This document shows positions 3,295 to 25,664 of a stretch of 64,000 nucleotides of DNA, in pieces. The translations under genes and the position numbers were made by a program. The DNA is from Escherichia coli. GTDB taxonomy: Bacteria > Pseudomonadota > Gammaproteobacteria > Enterobacterales > Enterobacteriaceae. Numbering within the stretch: position 1 is the first letter of the stretch; every line of letters starts with the position of its first letter. The stretch lies in assembly GCF_009931435.1 (NCBI RefSeq), contig NZ_CP043414.1; one strand, given 5' to 3'. The notes under the pieces were generated by a model, which saw only the letters and a list, made by a program, of their open reading frames with translations, made no database searches and was not told where the DNA came from.

Positions 3295-6231
<2,937 letters not shown>

Positions 6232-6242
6232 GAGCGGCGGTT

Positions 6243-7133
6243 ATGATGTTTAAGCAATACCTGCAAGTAACGAAACCAGGCATCATCTTTGGCAACCTGA
6301 TCTCGGTGATTGGGGGATTCCTGCTGGCCTCAAAGGGCAGCATTGATTATCCCCTGTTTATCTACACGCTGGTTGGGGTGTCACTGGTTGTGGCGTCGGG
6401 TTGTGTGTTTAACAACTACATCGACAGGGATATCGACAGAAAGATGGAAAGGACGAAGAATCGGGTGCTGGTTAAGGGCCTGATCTCTCCTGCTGTCTCG
6501 CTGGTGTACGCCACCTTGCTGGGTATTGCTGGCTTTATGCTGCTGTGGTTTGGCGCGAATCCGCTGGCCTGCTGGCTGGGGGTGATGGGCTTTGTGGTTT
6601 ATGTCGGCGTCTACAGCCTGTACATGAAACGCCACTCGGTCTACGGCACGTTGATTGGTTCGCTCTCTGGCGCTGCGCCGCCGGTGATCGGCTACTGTGC
6701 GGTAACCGGCGAGTTCGATAGCGGCGCAGCGATCCTGCTGGCTATCTTCAGCCTGTGGCAGATGCCTCACTCTTATGCCATCGCAATTTTCCGCTTTAAG
6801 GATTATCAGGCGGCAAACATTCCGGTACTGCCAGTGGTGAAAGGCATTTCGGTAGCGAAAAACCACATTACGCTGTATATCATCGCCTTTGCCGTTGCCA
6901 CGCTGATGCTCTCTCTTGGCGGTTACGCTGGGTATAAATATCTGGTGGTCGCCGCGGCGGTTAGCGTCTGGTGGTTAGGTATGGCGCTGCGTGGTTATAA
7001 AGTTGCTGATGATCGAATCTGGGCACGCAAGCTGTTCGGCTTCTCGATCATCGCCATCACTGCCCTCTCGGTAATGATGTCCGTTGATTTTATGGTGCCG
7101 GACTCGCATACGCTGCTGGCTGCTGTGTGGTAA
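6243..7133 (+). CDS. cyoE: Haem O synthase (protohaem IX farnesyltransferase)
   Basis: Start moved to [19 protein letters not shown], giving 296 aa; UbiA-family membrane protein. Confidence 0.92.
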
Positions 7134-7147
7134 CACAACCTCTCTAT

Positions 7148-7176
7148 AAAAAAGGTGCTACGGCACCTTTTTTATT
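7148..7176 (+). terminator. Rho-independent terminator of the cyo operon
   Basis: aaaaaaggtgc-tacg-gcacctttttt hairpin followed by a T-run, just after the cyoE stop. Confidence 0.75.
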
Positions 7177-7187
7177 GTCTGAGAACA

Positions 7188-7219
7188 GAGATACGGCTAA
7201 TAACCGTATCTCTTGACAG
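7188..7219 (+). promoter_or_regulatory. 10-bp perfect inverted repeat abutting a TTGACA -35-like hexamer; candidate promoter/operator of the toxin-antitoxin operon
   Basis: agagatacgg-N7-ccgtatctct immediately followed by ttgaca, then a 17-nt spacer and taaatt; about 100 nt upstream of the antitoxin ATG. Confidence 0.35.
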
Positions 7220-7317
7220 AGTGAGTATATGCACATAAATTAATCATTCGGTTGATAGCCGTATTATGCATGAGATCGACTCCCTACGATTTCATTCAGT
7301 TAATCAAAGAGGTCATA

Positions 7318-7629
7318 ATGCCTGGAAAAACAGTCGCTCTACCCGATATCGATAAAACGCTGAAAAATGCGCGGGTTGAACTCAAAACCAGTCCCGACGC
7401 CAAAAACAAACTTCGTGAAGCTGCGCAAGCCGTTGGGGTAGATTTAAGCGCTTTTATTTTGAGCGCAGCTATGGAACGCGCCGAAAGTGTGCTTGATAAC
7501 CAACGTCGCCGTGAGCTTTCGAATCAAAGCTGGGAACTGATGAACCAACTCATCGCTGAACCTGCTCAACCGACGCTCGCCCTCAAGGCGTTAATGAAAA
7601 GGAAAAACAGCGATGGTCGACAAGCATGA
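7318..7629 (+). CDS. Type II antitoxin, ribbon-helix-helix DUF1778 family (TacA/AtaR-like)
   Basis: 103 aa from the ATG with RBS aaagagg; N-terminal pattern KNARVELKTSPDAKNKLREAAQAVGVDLSAFILSAAMERAESVL is typical of DUF1778 antitoxins; its stop overlaps the start of the GNAT gene. Confidence 0.75.
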   Translation: MPGKTVALPDIDKTLKNARVELKTSPDAKNKLREAAQAVGVDLSAFILSAAMERAESVLDNQRRRELSNQSWELMNQLIAEPAQPTLALKALMKRKNSDGRQA

Positions 7630-8155
7630 AGAGATTACTCTGCCCATAGTCCTCTCCTGTAATTATCAGTCTGATATTACTTATCCTGGGCAAAAACAGT
7701 TTGATTGCGGTAACCCTGTTATCGATAAATTTGTACGCGCATCGCTAAAGAAAAGTGTGCGTAATAGCGACTGTGCTGCTAAAGCACTTATTGACAGACA
7801 AAGTGGTGAACTGATTGGCATCTGTACTTTTACGGCATATTCGCTGGAAAAACAACGCGTTTCTGGCGTCCTTCAGGGTTCACAACCTTCAGAGATTGGT
7901 GTTGTCAGATTAGTCATGTTAGGGGTAGCGCGGAAATATCAAAAGCGGGGCTTTGGTCAGGACCTACTATGTGATTTTTTTGAACATGTAAAAATAATTC
8001 ACCGGGCATTACCAATTAAAGGGGTTTATCTTGATGCTGACCCTGCCGCCATTAACTTTTATACTCGTCTCGGCTTTGTTCAGCTTTCAGCGAGGCCCAA
8101 TGTTTTCGGTGCTGTACCGATGTTTTTAGCGATTCAGCATATTCTCGCGGCTTAG
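7613..8155 (+). CDS. GNAT-family acetyltransferase toxin (TacT/AtaT/ItaT-like, predicted aminoacyl-tRNA acetyltransferase)
   Basis: 180 aa; FDCG motif near the N-terminus and the acetyl-CoA motif RKYQKRGFGQDLL; 17-nt overlap with the upstream antitoxin. Confidence 0.75.
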   Translation: MVDKHEEITLPIVLSCNYQSDITYPGQKQFDCGNPVIDKFVRASLKKSVRNSDCAAKALIDRQSGELIGICTFTAYSLEKQRVSGVLQGSQPSEIGVVRLVMLGVARKYQKRGFGQDLLCDFFEHVKIIHRALPIKGVYLDADPAAINFYTRLGFVQLSARPNVFGAVPMFLAIQHILAA

Positions 8156-8210
8156 ATTATTATCGCCTCCGGCCATGGCAAGTTTTGCCTCAGCCGGGGA
8201 CTGAGCAGCG

Positions 8211-9146
8211 TTACCACTTTTGTTCAATTGCCCCCGCTTTCATCAGGTCCACATCCTTGCCTTTAATGGTTGCCGTTGCGGCAACCATTGTGGTCCTTAT
8301 TGCTGCACAAGATTTTCGTTCAAATTCCGGTTTATAAAGAATAAGCAACGAATTACTGGTAAATGAATCAAGCCGGTAATCTGTAAAGTTAATATCCAGT
8401 CGGTTTAAGCCGAAAGGTGCAAAGCCGACCGTTTGAATAGTTTCCTTACCTGACGGACTCTTGATGTTGTACGTAACACGAAGATTGGCCACTTCGCCTA
8501 ATTTATTGGTTTTGGCAAAGAGGCTATCCATGCAGGAAAAACCTTTATCTAAAAAATTATCCCGCATTCCAGAACGGGTAATCGTGATCACAGGTAACGT
8601 ATCGTCAACCGTTTTTCTGTCAATCATATCTTTTCGACAGGTGGCCATAAAGTCTTCCGGACCAGTATAAATGTGAACACCCTTATCAAGATATTCTTTC
8701 GCTTTACTACAATCCACCTCGACATACTGACCATTGGCGTACATCATGCCCAACCTGGACCATGCTAAATTCACACCGCGTTGCGTAGCCTGATTAAATA
8801 ACGCATACGCTTTGGCATAATCCACCCGCACCTGTTCACCTTCGTAGTAGATATCCCCCAGCGCTAACGGAGCTTCTTCATCACCTTGTTTAGCGGCTAA
8901 CTCGAACCATTTAATGGCTTCCTGAACGTTGGGTTTGGTATCGTAGCGGGGCTGATAATATTCCCAGCCTAACAGGCTTTGCGCGTCGACATCCCCCGAC
9001 TCAGCCATTTTATACAGTGTCCTTATCACATCGGGGGCAGGCTTTTCACTGTATATGCTGTCATACAATTCATGCGCTTTCTCGCTTGCCAGTGAACCTT
9101 GTGAGGCAATTAATAAAATAGCCAATAAACTCTTTTCATTTAACAT
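8211..9146 (-). CDS. Secreted Sel1-like repeat (TPR-like) protein with a C-terminal domain of unknown function
   Basis: 311 aa; N-terminal signal peptide (LLAILLIASQGSLAS); tandem Sel1-type repeats (AIKWFELAAKQGDEEA..LGDIYYEG...AYALFNQATQRG...LGMMYANG); roughly 170-aa C-terminal region without recognisable motifs. Confidence 0.7.
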   Translation of the reverse strand: MLNEKSLLAILLIASQGSLASEKAHELYDSIYSEKPAPDVIRTLYKMAESGDVDAQSLLGWEYYQPRYDTKPNVQEAIKWFELAAKQGDEEAPLALGDIYYEGEQVRVDYAKAYALFNQATQRGVNLAWSRLGMMYANGQYVEVDCSKAKEYLDKGVHIYTGPEDFMATCRKDMIDRKTVDDTLPVITITRSGMRDNFLDKGFSCMDSLFAKTNKLGEVANLRVTYNIKSPSGKETIQTVGFAPFGLNRLDINFTDYRLDSFTSNSLLILYKPEFERKSCAAIRTTMVAATATIKGKDVDLMKAGAIEQKW

Positions 9147-9562
9147 AAATAACCTTTATGCATCCATCACTATATTTTTCAATAAACCTAACCACCAAAC
9201 ATCCACTTCATGAATAAATACACAGCCATAACAACCTCAGGTAATAAGTAAACATTTAAGCTGAAGCAGAATAACCAGCACCTCCAACACCTCTATTTAT
9301 TGCGATAAAATAACACCATCCTTTAATAAAAAATCACACGCTCATCAACAAATCCGAAAATAATATCATTCGTGGCAGGATAAAATCAGGCGAGCTTTTC
9401 ATTTGTTATATTTAACGCACAAAGTATTAATGGCAAGAATACGAGGGAAGCGCATGCCTGACGTAAAAATCACGCTCTTATGTAATATTTACTCATTAAC
9501 ACTCTGTTTACCCAACATGCGCTCCGCACTACACTATGTGGGCAATTTTTTAAGAGGTGGTA

Positions 9563-24214: not shown

Positions 24215-25099
24215 ATGAAAAAAACATTACTGGCAGCCGGTGCGGTACTGGCGCTCTCTTCGTCTTTTACTGTCAACGCAGCTGAAAACGACAAACCGCA
24301 GTATCTTTCCGACTGGTGGCACCAGAGCGTTAACGTTGTCGGAAGCTATCACACCCGTTTCGGACCGCAGATCCGCAACGATACCTACCTTGAGTACGAA
24401 GCATTCGCTAAAAAAGACTGGTTCGACTTCTATGGGTATGCGGATGCGCCGGTATTCTTCGGCGGTAACTCCGATGCAAAAGGTATCTGGAACCACGGTT
24501 CCCCGCTGTTTATGGAAATCGAACCACGTTTCTCCATCGACAAGCTGACCAATACTGACCTTAGCTTTGGTCCGTTCAAAGAGTGGTACTTCGCGAACAA
24601 CTACATTTACGACATGGGTCGTAATAAAGATGGTCGCCAGAGCACCTGGTACATGGGTCTGGGTACCGATATCGATACTGGCCTGCCGATGAGCCTGTCC
24701 ATGAACGTGTATGCAAAATACCAGTGGCAGAACTATGGCGCAGCGAACGAAAACGAGTGGGACGGTTACCGTTTCAAAATTAAATACTTTGTGCCGATTA
24801 CCGATCTGTGGGGTGGTCAGCTGAGCTACATCGGCTTCACCAACTTCGACTGGGGTTCCGATTTAGGGGATGACAGCGGTAACGCAATCAACGGTATTAA
24901 GACCCGTACCAATAACTCCATCGCTTCCAGCCATATTCTGGCTCTGAACTACGATCACTGGCACTACTCTGTCGTAGCTCGTTACTGGCACGACGGTGGT
25001 CAGTGGAACGACGATGCAGAACTGAACTTCGGCAACGGCAACTTCAACGTTCGCTCTACCGGCTGGGGTGGCTACCTGGTAGTAGGTTACAACTTCTGA
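24215..25099 (+). CDS. tsx: Nucleoside-specific outer-membrane channel Tsx
   Basis: Start moved to [22 protein letters not shown] (signal peptide), giving 294 aa; ends in F, as beta-barrel proteins do. Confidence 0.94.
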
Positions 25100-25104
25100 T
25101 GAAT

Positions 25105-25130
25105 GAAATGCCGGATCTTGTATCCGGCAT
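25105..25130 (+). terminator. Short hairpin immediately after the tsx stop
   Basis: gccggat-cttgt-atccggc followed by attt. Confidence 0.4.
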
Positions 25131-25162
25131 TTCAGATTGTTAACAACGTGCGCTTTGTTCAT

Positions 25163-25260
<98 letters not shown>

Positions 25261-25288
25261 AATTTTGCGTTTGTCATAAAGCTCAAAT

Positions 25289-25317
25289 AACGGATTTTGT
25301 ATCCGTCATTTTTTTAT
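25289..25317 (+). terminator. Rho-independent terminator (plus strand) ending at the yajD stop codon
   Basis: aacggat-tttgt-atccgtc followed by atttttttat. Confidence 0.6.
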
Positions 25318-25664
25318 CACTTCTTCTTATTCATCATCGCTTTTAAATCAGCGAATGGGTTGTACTTCGCTTCACCGACATCTTTCTGCGCATCTTCCCC
25401 TGCGATAACGGTCGTACCATACTGATCCGCTTCGGTATATTTCGAATGCTCATGATCGTGGCAATAGAGACACAACAATTCCCAGTTACTGCCATCTTCC
25501 GGGTTATTAGTATGGTCGTGATCGATATGGTGAACGGTAAGTTCACGCAGATTGGAGTAGACAAACTCGCGGGAGCAGCGTCCACACACCCACGGATAGA
25601 TTTTTAATGCTTTTTCGCGATAGCCGCTTTCTAACCGCGCATAATTTTTTGGGATGATAGCCAT
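25317..25664 (-). CDS. yajD: HNH-nuclease-family protein YajD
   Basis: Track ORF, 115 aa; HNH-type motif (HHIDHDH ... CLYCHDHEH). Confidence 0.92.
   Translation of the reverse strand: MAIIPKNYARLESGYREKALKIYPWVCGRCSREFVYSNLRELTVHHIDHDHTNNPEDGSNWELLCLYCHDHEHSKYTEADQYGTTVIAGEDAQKDVGEAKYNPFADLKAMMNKKK

What the first reader, a model, noticed from the sequence alone, without database searches (positions are those of the whole stretch)
7177..9556. Insertion of about 2.4 kb between cyoE and yajR carrying a toxin-antitoxin pair and a secreted Sel1-repeat protein
The cyo operon terminator (7148-7176) and the yajR start (9563) are separated by about 2.4 kb holding three ORFs that are not part of the conserved backbone: a DUF1778-like antitoxin, a GNAT toxin, and a convergent signal-peptide Sel1-repeat protein. 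Hand-counted samples give roughly 42% G+C, below the flanking core. I recall cyoE and yajR as adjacent in K-12. There is no integrase, transposase or tRNA, so the insertion mechanism is unclear. The three-gene arrangement could be a toxin-antitoxin module plus cargo, or a single functional unit such as a defence or stress module; that is inference.
Basis: partly seen in the sequence, partly recalled or inferred. Interest (0 to 1): 0.78.

Follow-up and report, generated by a model that had tools for sequence, protein, structure and literature searches.

The report
ItaRT toxin-antitoxin islet with exported Sel1 protein
The 2.4-kb stretch between cyoE and yajR is a real accessory islet found in about a quarter of E. 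coli; it carries the already characterised ItaR-ItaT toxin-antitoxin pair and, next to it, an uncharacterised exported Sel1-repeat protein, so most of it is known biology.

Summary
Window 7177-9556 contains three intact genes that K-12 lacks, at 43.1% G+C against 52.5% in the flanks, with no integrase, transposase or tRNA.

The toxin-antitoxin pair is ItaR-ItaT. The toxin is 175/180 identical to the crystallised E. coli HS ItaT (PDB 7BYY), which acetylates Ile-tRNA(Ile) and stalls translation. This part is already known.

The two modules are separable: sel1 occurs without itaRT, and ItaRT-like pairs occur without sel1. Nothing matches known defence systems.

"Empty" is the deep ancestral state: about 64 of 80 Enterobacterales species have yajR within about 120-420 bp of cyoE. 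The islet sits at the same site in 1,366 of 5,426 complete E. coli genomes, in other Escherichia lineages, and in Pseudocitrobacter and Superficieibacter. The window copy is a reduced form of a four-gene island.

It is perfectly linked to its own allele of the yajR promoter. This points to spread by homologous recombination in the conserved flanks.

Ordinary overall; interest is low.

The parts
7146..7176 (+). cyo operon intrinsic terminator; left boundary of the variable segment
   Evidence: Perfect 13-nt inverted repeat followed by a T-run (I8). Homology to the empty K-12-like allele ends at 7176.
7177..7317 (+). itaRT promoter and putative operator region. Palindromes at 7187-7213 (core ATACGGCTAATAACCGTAT, 7191-7209) and 7246-7264. 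-35 TTGACA at 7213-7218, -10 TAAATT at 7236-7241, RBS AAGAGG at 7307-7312.
   Evidence: (I4, I11). Both palindromes are conserved in BL21, Superficieibacter and Pseudocitrobacter. Autorepression by the ItaR-ItaT complex is published (PMC6125619). That these palindromes are the operators is my inference.
7318..7629 (+). itaR: DUF1778/TacA-type ribbon-helix-helix antitoxin, 103 aa
   Evidence: Matches KacA (5ZGN, E 3.5e-11) and AtaR (6AJM, E 8.6e-9). Annotated as DUF1778/TacA-family antitoxin in RefSeq. 97% amino-acid identity to the BL21 copy.
7613..8155 (+). itaT: GNAT aminoacyl-tRNA acetyltransferase toxin, 180 aa
   Evidence: 175/180 identical to PDB 7BYY, E 1.3e-115. Tyr150 is present, the residue whose Y150A mutant was built in the ItaT paper, and so is an RGFGQ motif. 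Activity is published in PMC6125619, PMC7367177 and PMC9177977.
8167..8199 (.). G+C-rich hairpin between the convergent itaT and sel1 stop codons; likely a bidirectional terminator
   Evidence: Fold energy -24.3 kcal/mol, z -2.26 against shuffles. Its function is inferred.
8211..9146 (-). sel1: predicted exported protein, 311 aa. Signal peptide about residues 1-20, Sel1 repeats about 37-178, beta-sandwich 185-311.
9147..9478 (-). AT-rich sel1 upstream region (the 9147-9562 spacer is 35.8% G+C). From about 9190 onward it is homologous to the region upstream of the longer paralogue Sel1L in the four-gene island.
   Evidence: Relative to locus L099, a 1.59-kb Sel1L ORF is missing between window positions ~9092 and ~9190. 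This region is the most variable part between alleles, 72% identity to BL21.
9479..9562 (+). yajR promoter region, the allele linked to the islet
   Evidence: 76-96% identical among occupied alleles, including one from Superficieibacter, but only 64-67% identical to the K-12-type empty allele. This allele occurs in exactly the 1,372 E. coli genomes that match the islet.

Best explanation
This is a small accessory islet in the cyoE-yajR spacer, a spot that takes different cargo in different Enterobacteriaceae. It holds two independent modules.

Module 1 is itaRT, a type II toxin-antitoxin operon. ItaT uses acetyl-CoA to acetylate the alpha-amino group of charged Ile-tRNA(Ile), and to a lesser degree Val- and Met-tRNA. 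The blocked aminoacyl-tRNA cannot be used for elongation, so ribosomes stall at Ile codons. ItaR binds and neutralises ItaT, and the complex represses the operon's own promoter. I infer that repression acts through the two palindromes that flank that promoter.

Module 2 is a single-gene unit for a Sec-exported protein made of Sel1 repeats and a disulfide-containing beta-sandwich. Its most likely role is a periplasmic or secreted protein-binding adaptor. Its partner is unknown.

The window copy is a reduced form of a four-gene island (itaR, itaT, Sel1, Sel1L). The Sel1L ORF has been deleted, which leaves sel1 behind the old Sel1L promoter region.

The islet has no mobility genes. It most likely spreads and is replaced as a whole allele of the intergenic region, by homologous recombination in the conserved cyoE and yajR flanks. 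The toxin-antitoxin pair plausibly slows loss of the segment.

Shown here or in the literature: gene identities, ItaT chemistry, distribution, haplotype linkage. Inferred: operator assignment, export, adaptor role, recombination route, stabilising role.
For: Identity of ItaT and ItaR. Published function: PMC6125619, PMC7367177 and PMC9177977. Tyr150 is present and the two genes overlap.

The palindromes flanking the promoter are conserved across three genera.

Sel1 architecture and fold. C146, C170, C205 and C280 are invariant, which fits an oxidising compartment. sel1 has dN/dS 0.20-0.39 with dN 10-40 times that of the flanking genes.

The modules are separable. sel1 occurs without itaRT in E. 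albertii, Pseudocitrobacter L009 and Escherichia sp. E4930. ItaRT-like pairs at 77% identity sit on a Citrobacter phage-plasmid without sel1.

The four-gene form is in L099 and L032. The Sel1L deletion junction is shown.

Empty is ancestral, and the site is a hotspot that holds five other unrelated inserts.

Recombination route. K-12-like and BL21 flanks are about 99% identical right up to the junctions, while the ~85 bp before yajR differ by about 35%. A Superficieibacter strain with the islet is 98.6% and 96.7% identical in cyo and yajR to a conspecific strain that carries a 6.8-kb sugar cluster at the same site, yet its yajR promoter is 85% identical to the window and only 65-74% to its congeners. 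The islet-type promoter is found only in the 1,372 genomes that match the islet. The one genome among them that lacks the genes (O157:H7 TR01) shows a clean deletion scar that keeps the first palindrome.
Against: No experiment was done on this allele, which differs from the studied HS protein at 5 of 180 residues.

The operator assignment is by sequence only.

Export of the Sel1 protein rests on inspection of the N-terminus and low model confidence there; no signal-peptide predictor was available.

The direction of change within E. coli is not resolved. The promoter comparison rests on about 85 bp. E. fergusonii, S. enterica subsp. enterica and most Escherichia species were not returned by the capped genome scan.

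itaRT and sel1 are together in essentially all E. coli carriers (1,366 of 1,372) and in three genera. This is also what a functional link would predict.

A stabilising role for chromosomal toxin-antitoxin pairs is a general idea that has not been shown for ItaRT; PMC6125619 states that its role is unknown.
Confidence: 0.75

Rival explanations
1. The three genes form one functional unit, for example an anti-phage or stress module in which the exported Sel1 protein senses or triggers and ItaT executes.
For: The three genes are together in 1,366 of the 1,372 E. coli genomes that match the islet. The same order, cyoE-itaR-itaT-sel1, is seen in Escherichia, Pseudocitrobacter and, with a decayed itaT, Superficieibacter.
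Against: The genes are convergent transcription units separated by a hairpin. sel1 occurs without itaRT in E. albertii, Escherichia sp. E4930 and Pseudocitrobacter L009. An ItaRT-like pair sits alone among tail genes of a Citrobacter phage-plasmid. ItaRT works as a two-gene toxin-antitoxin system when cloned alone (PMC6125619). There are no PADLOC hits. The two modules diverge very differently between the same genomes: itaRT is 97% identical at the protein level, Sel1 85%.
Confidence: 0.07
2. The islet is ancestral to E. coli, and the K-12-type empty site is a derived loss. On this view the reader saw a K-12 deletion rather than an insertion in this lineage.
For: The islet or its larger form is present in E. 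albertii, several cryptic Escherichia lineages and several E. coli lineages: strains commonly assigned to phylogroups A, B1 and F (BL21, O104:H4, O103, O111, CE10; phylogroup assignments are my own knowledge). Synonymous divergence of itaR between genera (dS 0.55-0.67) is close to that of cyoE (0.69-0.84). The islet-linked yajR promoter carries the family-wide motif CGCACTACACTATG, whereas K-12 carries a variant otherwise seen in Citrobacter.
Against: A true deletion of the islet leaves a recognisable scar, and that scar is seen in only 1 of 5,426 genomes. The roughly 4,050 other empty genomes have a different allele with no trace of islet sequence. That allele is colinear with the uninterrupted spacers of Citrobacter and many other genera. 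The sel1 allele tree disagrees with the core genes: window versus E. albertii has dS 0.17 against 0.26-0.28 for the core. This points to exchange between lineages rather than simple vertical descent followed by loss.
Confidence: 0.3
3. The Sel1 protein is an orphan periplasmic immunity protein against a cell-envelope toxin delivered by competitors (T6SS or contact-dependent), not a host-interaction or general adaptor protein.
Against: No effector or T6SS gene lies next to it in any context examined. The top fold matches are general Sel1 proteins. The match to PA5086 covered only 133 residues of the full-length model, consistent with the Sel1-repeat part alone. Nothing was tested functionally.
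Confidence: 0.15

Closest known systems
ItaR-ItaT of E. coli HS / BL21(DE3) (GNAT/DUF1778 type II toxin-antitoxin; PDB 7BYY; PMC6125619)
   Same: Same genes. ItaT is 175/180 identical and ItaR is 97% identical to the BL21 copy. Same overlapping two-gene operon and the same chromosomal site as in BL21.
   Different: Five substitutions in ItaT, including G115 where the HS protein has D; this gives the window allele an RGFGQ motif. The published work does not describe the cyoE-yajR location or the Sel1 neighbour: neither gene name occurs in the paper.
AtaRT, KacAT and TacAT (other GNAT/DUF1778 toxin-antitoxin systems)
   Same: Same family and mechanism class: acetylation of aminoacyl-tRNA, and a ribbon-helix-helix antitoxin that neutralises the toxin.
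   Different: Only distant sequence similarity (E 1e-5 to 1e-9). Different preferred tRNAs; ItaT stalls ribosomes mainly at Ile codons (PMC9177977).
Bacterial Sel1-like repeat proteins (EsiB/c5321, HcpC, LpnE)
IrmA (c1275) of uropathogenic E. coli, a secreted FNIII-like protein reported to bind IL-2, IL-4 and IL-10 (PDB 5EK5; PMC4807369)
   Different: 14% identity. A profile of the domain finds no PDB sequence even at E 10, and none of the family's 33 hits has a solved-structure counterpart. IrmA is a stand-alone, domain-swapped dimer, whereas here the domain is fused to Sel1 repeats. Cytokine binding was not tested.

Membership tests
GNAT/DUF1778 type II toxin-antitoxin (ItaRT) | Two-gene operon with the antitoxin gene first, adjacent to or overlapping the toxin gene | tested here: met
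   itaR 7318-7629 and itaT 7613-8155, 17-nt overlap, same strand.
GNAT/DUF1778 type II toxin-antitoxin (ItaRT) | Toxin is a GNAT acetyltransferase of the TacT/AtaT/ItaT group and has the Tyr150 residue | tested here: met
   E 1.3e-115 and 175/180 identity to 7BYY; weaker matches to KacT, AtaT and TacT. Tyr150 and an RGFGQ motif are present. The paper built a Y150A mutant.
GNAT/DUF1778 type II toxin-antitoxin (ItaRT) | Antitoxin of the DUF1778/TacA ribbon-helix-helix type | tested here: met
   KacA E 3.5e-11 and AtaR E 8.6e-9 over residues 14-96. Pfam TacA1 is recorded for the orthologue in L006.
GNAT/DUF1778 type II toxin-antitoxin (ItaRT) | Toxin arrests growth, and the antitoxin neutralises it and represses the operon | not testable with these tools
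   Shown experimentally for the 97%-identical HS proteins (PMC6125619). Here only the palindromes around the promoter are seen.
Sel1-like repeat proteins | Tandem Sel1 (PF08238) repeats forming an alpha/alpha solenoid | tested here: met
IrmA-like proteins | FNIII-like beta-sandwich fold | tested here: met
IrmA-like proteins | Detectable sequence homology to IrmA | tested here: not met
   The domain profile finds no PDB chain at E up to 10. The 33 hits among 1.84 billion proteins are Sel1-fused proteins or fragments of them.
IrmA-like proteins | Secreted, domain-swapped dimer that binds cytokines | not testable with these tools
   Needs protein biochemistry; these properties are described for IrmA in PMC4807369.
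Classical genomic island or integrative element | Integrase or transposase, a tRNA or att target, and flanking direct repeats | tested here: not met
   No such ORF, no tRNA, and no terminal direct or inverted repeats at the junctions. Only the low G+C fits.
Known anti-phage defence systems (PADLOC) | Proteins match a defence-system model | tested here: not met
   No hit for ItaR or ItaT. The Sel1 protein gives only a spurious 40-residue match (E 3.3e-4).
Sel1-type T6SS immunity proteins | Encoded next to a cognate effector or T6SS gene | tested here: not met

The most novel reading that the evidence does not exclude
The exported protein combining Sel1 repeats with an IrmA-like beta-sandwich, and its longer paralogue Sel1L, define a very small and unstudied family. 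It has 33 clusters among 1.84 billion representative proteins. The family could be a new class of secreted ligand-binding factor, directed at host immune molecules or at competitors, that is kept in Escherichia as a fast-evolving polymorphism with alleles shared across species. The adjacent ItaRT would act as its retention module.
Probability: 0.12. Interest if true: 0.5.

Novelty: already known. Interest (0 to 1): 0.22.

Why it matters
The practical value is mostly in annotation. The GNAT/DUF1778 pair at this site should be named ItaRT. Its chromosomal home can now be described as a cyoE-yajR islet present in about 25% of complete E. coli genomes, including BL21, which matters to anyone using BL21 as a toxin-free host.

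Two smaller points may interest specialists. First, this spacer is a cassette-exchange hotspot where whole intergenic alleles, cargo plus yajR promoter, are swapped within and between genera without any mobility gene. Second, the neighbouring exported Sel1/beta-sandwich protein is intact, evolves fast under purifying selection, has never been studied, and has the cytokine-binding protein IrmA as its nearest structural relative.

Neither point overturns current views.

Tried and rejected
Target-site duplications or terminal inverted repeats at the islet ends: none found. Three short matches between 9311-9414 and the ancestral spacer (D4, D10, D11) are weak, lie in AT-rich DNA and are absent from the BL21 allele, so I treat them as chance.

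tRNA and Rfam scans: nothing above threshold. One STnc50 match at E 0.73 merely overlaps the terminator.

NCBIfam, PADLOC and PHROGs gave no match reaching a curated cut-off or pointing to a function for the Sel1 protein, the 325-aa E. albertii ORF or Sel1L.

A sequence-level link between the C-terminal domain and IrmA was not found.

Genomic contexts of four distant family members showed no shared neighbour.

Literature searches for the locus tags and for cyoE/yajR together with toxin-antitoxin found no description of the Sel1 gene or of the hotspot.

I first thought the K-12 empty site might be a simple deletion of the islet. I rejected this for the common allele, because a true deletion scar looks different and occurs in one genome only.

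Information on other Escherichia lineages therefore came from exact-protein look-ups.
Full report

Yes. ORF listing shows a 103-aa ORF at 7318-7629, a 180-aa ORF at 7613-8155 that overlaps it by 17 nt, and a convergent 311-aa ORF at 8211-9146 on the minus strand. They lie between cyoE (ends 7133) and yajR (ATG 9563).

The cyo terminator is a perfect 13-nt inverted repeat at 7146-7175 followed by a T-run. G+C is 0.431 for 7177-9556, against 0.525 for the cyo operon and for yajR. Third-position G+C is 0.37-0.45 in the three genes, against 0.59-0.68 in the flanking genes. There is no tRNA, no Rfam family above threshold, and no integrase or transposase ORF.

A K-12-like strain has cyoE and yajR 148 bp apart.

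**2. What the genes are**

The 180-aa protein is ItaT. It matches PDB 7BYY over its full length at E 1.3e-115 with 175/180 identical residues. It has Tyr150, the residue changed in the published Y150A mutant, and an RGFGQ motif.

The 103-aa protein matches the DUF1778 antitoxins KacA (E 3.5e-11) and AtaR (E 8.6e-9). Its size and the gene overlap fit the published description of itaR: an 11.4-kDa product, two partially overlapping genes, and a "virtually identical" pair in BL21(DE3) (PMC6125619). The BL21 copy sits at this same site.

Published work shows the following:
- It stalls ribosomes at Ile codons.
- ItaR neutralises it, and peptidyl-tRNA hydrolase counteracts it.
- The ItaR-ItaT complex represses the operon.

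These points come from PMC6125619, PMC7367177 and PMC9177977.

Upstream of itaR is a promoter-like site, TTGACA at 7213 and TAAATT ending at 7241. Two related palindromes bracket it, at 7187-7213 and 7246-7264. Both are conserved in BL21, Pseudocitrobacter and Superficieibacter. I infer that they are the ItaR operators.

The 311-aa protein has three Pfam Sel1 repeats in residues 54-155 and no Pfam hit for its C-terminal half. The N-terminus, MLNEKSLLAILLIASQGSLA/SEK, looks like a Sec signal peptide and is the only low-confidence part of the AlphaFold2 model (pLDDT 84.6, pTM 0.81).

No sequence relationship to IrmA is detectable. A profile of the domain finds no PDB chain even at E 10. Across 1.84 billion representative proteins it finds only 33 hits. 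Those examined are proteins in which the domain follows Sel1 repeats, or short fragments. Four cysteines are invariant in the family.

NCBIfam, PADLOC and PHROGs add nothing about function. No paper in the library mentions the gene.

**3. Distribution and polarity**

Among 5,426 complete E. coli genomes, 1,366 carry the whole block at this site and the rest have the short spacer. The window's own allele is rare: 17 genomes at 99% identity or more. The common allele, found in BL21, O104:H4, O103 and O111 strains, is about 89% identical.

The window as a whole is 96-98% identical to K-12-like and BL21 sequence over 30 kb. It therefore comes from a divergent E. coli lineage.

A scan of species-representative genomes with CyoE returned 80 Enterobacterales loci. 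In about 64 of them yajR starts within about 120-420 bp of cyoE; this holds from Citrobacter to Pectobacterium. The empty spacer is therefore the deep ancestral state, and the islet is an insertion in that sense.

The same spot holds unrelated cargo in other taxa:
- Superficieibacter electus: a ~7-kb sugar-utilisation cluster.
- Salmonella arizonae: a 1.6-kb insert.
- Citrobacter sp. wls619: a 1-kb insert.
- Enterobacter sp. Bisph1: a 5.9-kb insert.
- A Leclercia MAG: a 0.8-kb insert.

It is an insertion hotspot.

**4. The islet is old, modular and decaying**

Full-length Sel1 homologues are essentially confined to Escherichia (80-88% identity), plus 58-60% homologues and 37% paralogues of about 480 aa. 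Their contexts are as follows:

| Lineage (locus) | Arrangement |
|---|---|
| E. albertii (L004, L005) | cyoE, then a 325-aa exported ORF, then sel1, then yajR; no itaRT |
| Escherichia sp. E4385-like (L099) | Four genes: itaR, itaT, sel1, Sel1L |
| Escherichia sp. E4930 (L098) | sel1 and Sel1L only |
| E. coli variant (L100) | sel1 plus amidohydrolase and LysR remnants |
| Pseudocitrobacter MAG (L032) | Four-gene form; ItaT 89% and ItaR 86% identical to the window |
| Second Pseudocitrobacter (L009) | No itaRT; a split copy of the 325-aa ORF between the two Sel1 genes |
| Superficieibacter-like MAG (L006) | itaR, a truncated itaT ending in a REP element, sel1 and Sel1L |

Relative to the four-gene form, the window lacks the 1.59-kb Sel1L ORF. 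Window positions from about 9190 to 9562 are homologous to the region upstream of Sel1L, so sel1 now sits behind the old Sel1L promoter region. BL21 and E. albertii share this junction.

The two modules evolve differently. Window versus BL21:

| Gene | dS | dN |
|---|---|---|
| cyoE | 0.12 | 0 |
| yajR | 0.23 | 0.002 |
| itaR | 0.04 | 0.013 |
| itaT | 0.10 | 0.012 |
| sel1 | 0.41 | 0.083 (dN/dS 0.20) |

The window's sel1 is also closer to the E. albertii allele (dS 0.17) than the core genes are (dS 0.26-0.28). So sel1 is functional and fast-evolving, and its alleles do not follow the core tree.

**5. How it moves**

There are no terminal repeats or duplications at the junctions. K-12-like and BL21 flanks are about 99% identical right up to the junctions. 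The ~85 bp before the yajR start, however, form two sharply different alleles.

The islet-linked alleles from the window, BL21, E. albertii and the Superficieibacter MAG are 76-96% identical to one another. They are only 64-67% identical to the K-12-type allele. The K-12-type allele is instead closest to Citrobacter empty spacers, at 75-76%.

The Superficieibacter MAG is 98.6% (cyo) and 96.7% (yajR) identical to strain 1612_C1, which carries a sugar cluster at the site. Yet its promoter segment resembles the Escherichia islet allele (85%) more than its congeners (65-74%).

In E. coli the islet-type left end and promoter occur in exactly the 1,372 genomes that match the islet. The single exception that lacks the genes is O157:H7 TR01. 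It has a clean deletion scar that joins the first palindrome directly to the islet-type promoter. A typical O157:H7 strain has the K-12-type allele. No trace of K-12's distinctive spacer sequence exists in the window.

Together these results indicate that the whole intergenic region, cargo plus yajR promoter, is exchanged as an allele by homologous recombination in cyoE and yajR. They also indicate that the common empty allele is not a recent deletion of the islet. Whether the root of E. coli was empty or occupied remains open.

**6. One unit or two?**

Two. The genes are convergent, with a stable hairpin between them. Each module is found without the other. An ItaT homologue at 77% identity sits with its antitoxin among tail genes of a Citrobacter phage-plasmid, with no Sel1 gene nearby. 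ItaRT works as a two-gene system when cloned alone. PADLOC finds nothing.

Their constant association within E. coli follows from being carried on one haplotype.

**7. Verdict**

The finding is accurate but largely ordinary. It describes a known toxin-antitoxin system in a small, old, recombination-exchanged islet. The only unexplored element is the exported Sel1/beta-sandwich protein, whose function I cannot determine. The most likely role is a periplasmic or secreted protein-binding adaptor; an orphan immunity protein is an alternative.

Noticed in passing
L028 (Leclercia adecarboxylata MAG), 243-575 bp after cyoE: A 0.8-kb insert at the same cyoE-yajR spot. It holds a 110-aa Gly/Ser/Ala-rich ORF that begins MKELSLNEMQYISGG, a double-glycine leader typical of microcins and class II bacteriocins.
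   Followed up: no
L017 and L018 (Superficieibacter electus and Superficieibacter sp. 1612_C1), 0-7 kb after cyoE: A ~7-kb sugar-utilisation cluster occupies the same spacer. By my reading of the translated ORFs it encodes a 593-aa isomerase-like protein, a 140-aa mutarotase-like protein, a LacI-type regulator, a sugar transporter and a 447-aa hydrolase-like protein. A conspecific MAG (L006) has the itaR/Sel1 islet there instead.
   Followed up: partly
L019 (Salmonella enterica subsp. arizonae CCUG 6322T), L016 (Citrobacter sp. wls619) and L035 (Enterobacter sp. Bisph1), just after cyoE: Three more unrelated low-G+C inserts at the same site. One is 1.6 kb with a 374-aa unknown ORF. One is 1 kb with two paralogous ~113-aa ORFs. 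One is 5.9 kb with a 307-aa ORF, which I read as chitinase-like, and two predicted membrane proteins.
   Followed up: no
L004 5048-6025 (E. albertii) and L009 5001-5978 (Pseudocitrobacter): A 325-aa exported protein with no Pfam domain takes the place of itaRT in E. albertii. In Pseudocitrobacter it is split into 145-aa and 144-aa ORFs between the two Sel1 genes. Its homologues are hypothetical proteins scattered through Enterobacteriaceae. One E. coli genome in 5,426 carries it.
   Followed up: partly
L102 (E. coli O157:H7 strain TR01), positions 466-510: A unique deletion scar: about 34 bp of the islet's left end, including the first palindrome, joined to the islet-type yajR promoter. Found in 1 of 5,426 genomes. 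Other O157:H7 strains have the K-12-type spacer.
   Followed up: yes
L006 (reverse complement) about 4260-4295, and L009 between cyoE and sel1: REP-like palindromic elements (GTCGTAGGYCRGATAAGGC...GCCGCCATC) sit exactly where itaT is truncated in L006 and where itaRT is absent in L009.
   Followed up: no
window 25001-25500: This 500-bp stretch is only 86.6% identical to both K-12-like and BL21 sequence, while its neighbours are 95-99% identical. By the K-12-like annotation it covers the 3' end of tsx and the tsx-yajD spacer.
   Followed up: no
window 9311-9345 and 9399-9414: Short degenerate matches (74-82% over 16-23 nt) to the cyoE stop/terminator lead-in (7131-7153) and to the spacer and start of the yajR promoter (9465-9491), in the same order. 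They lie in AT-rich DNA and are absent from the BL21 allele, so they are probably chance.
   Followed up: partly
E. coli records H8 (NZ_CM129867.1) and H35 (NZ_CP076272.1): Single genomes with an IS1 or an IS3 element inserted inside the islet. The IS3 splits the Sel1 gene.
   Followed up: no
L100 4443-6134 (E. coli variant, GCA_015332265.1): In this allele the place of itaRT is taken by about 1.7 kb. It holds a 315-aa ORF that I read as a truncated amidohydrolase and a 111-aa ORF that I read as a LysR-type fragment.
   Followed up: no
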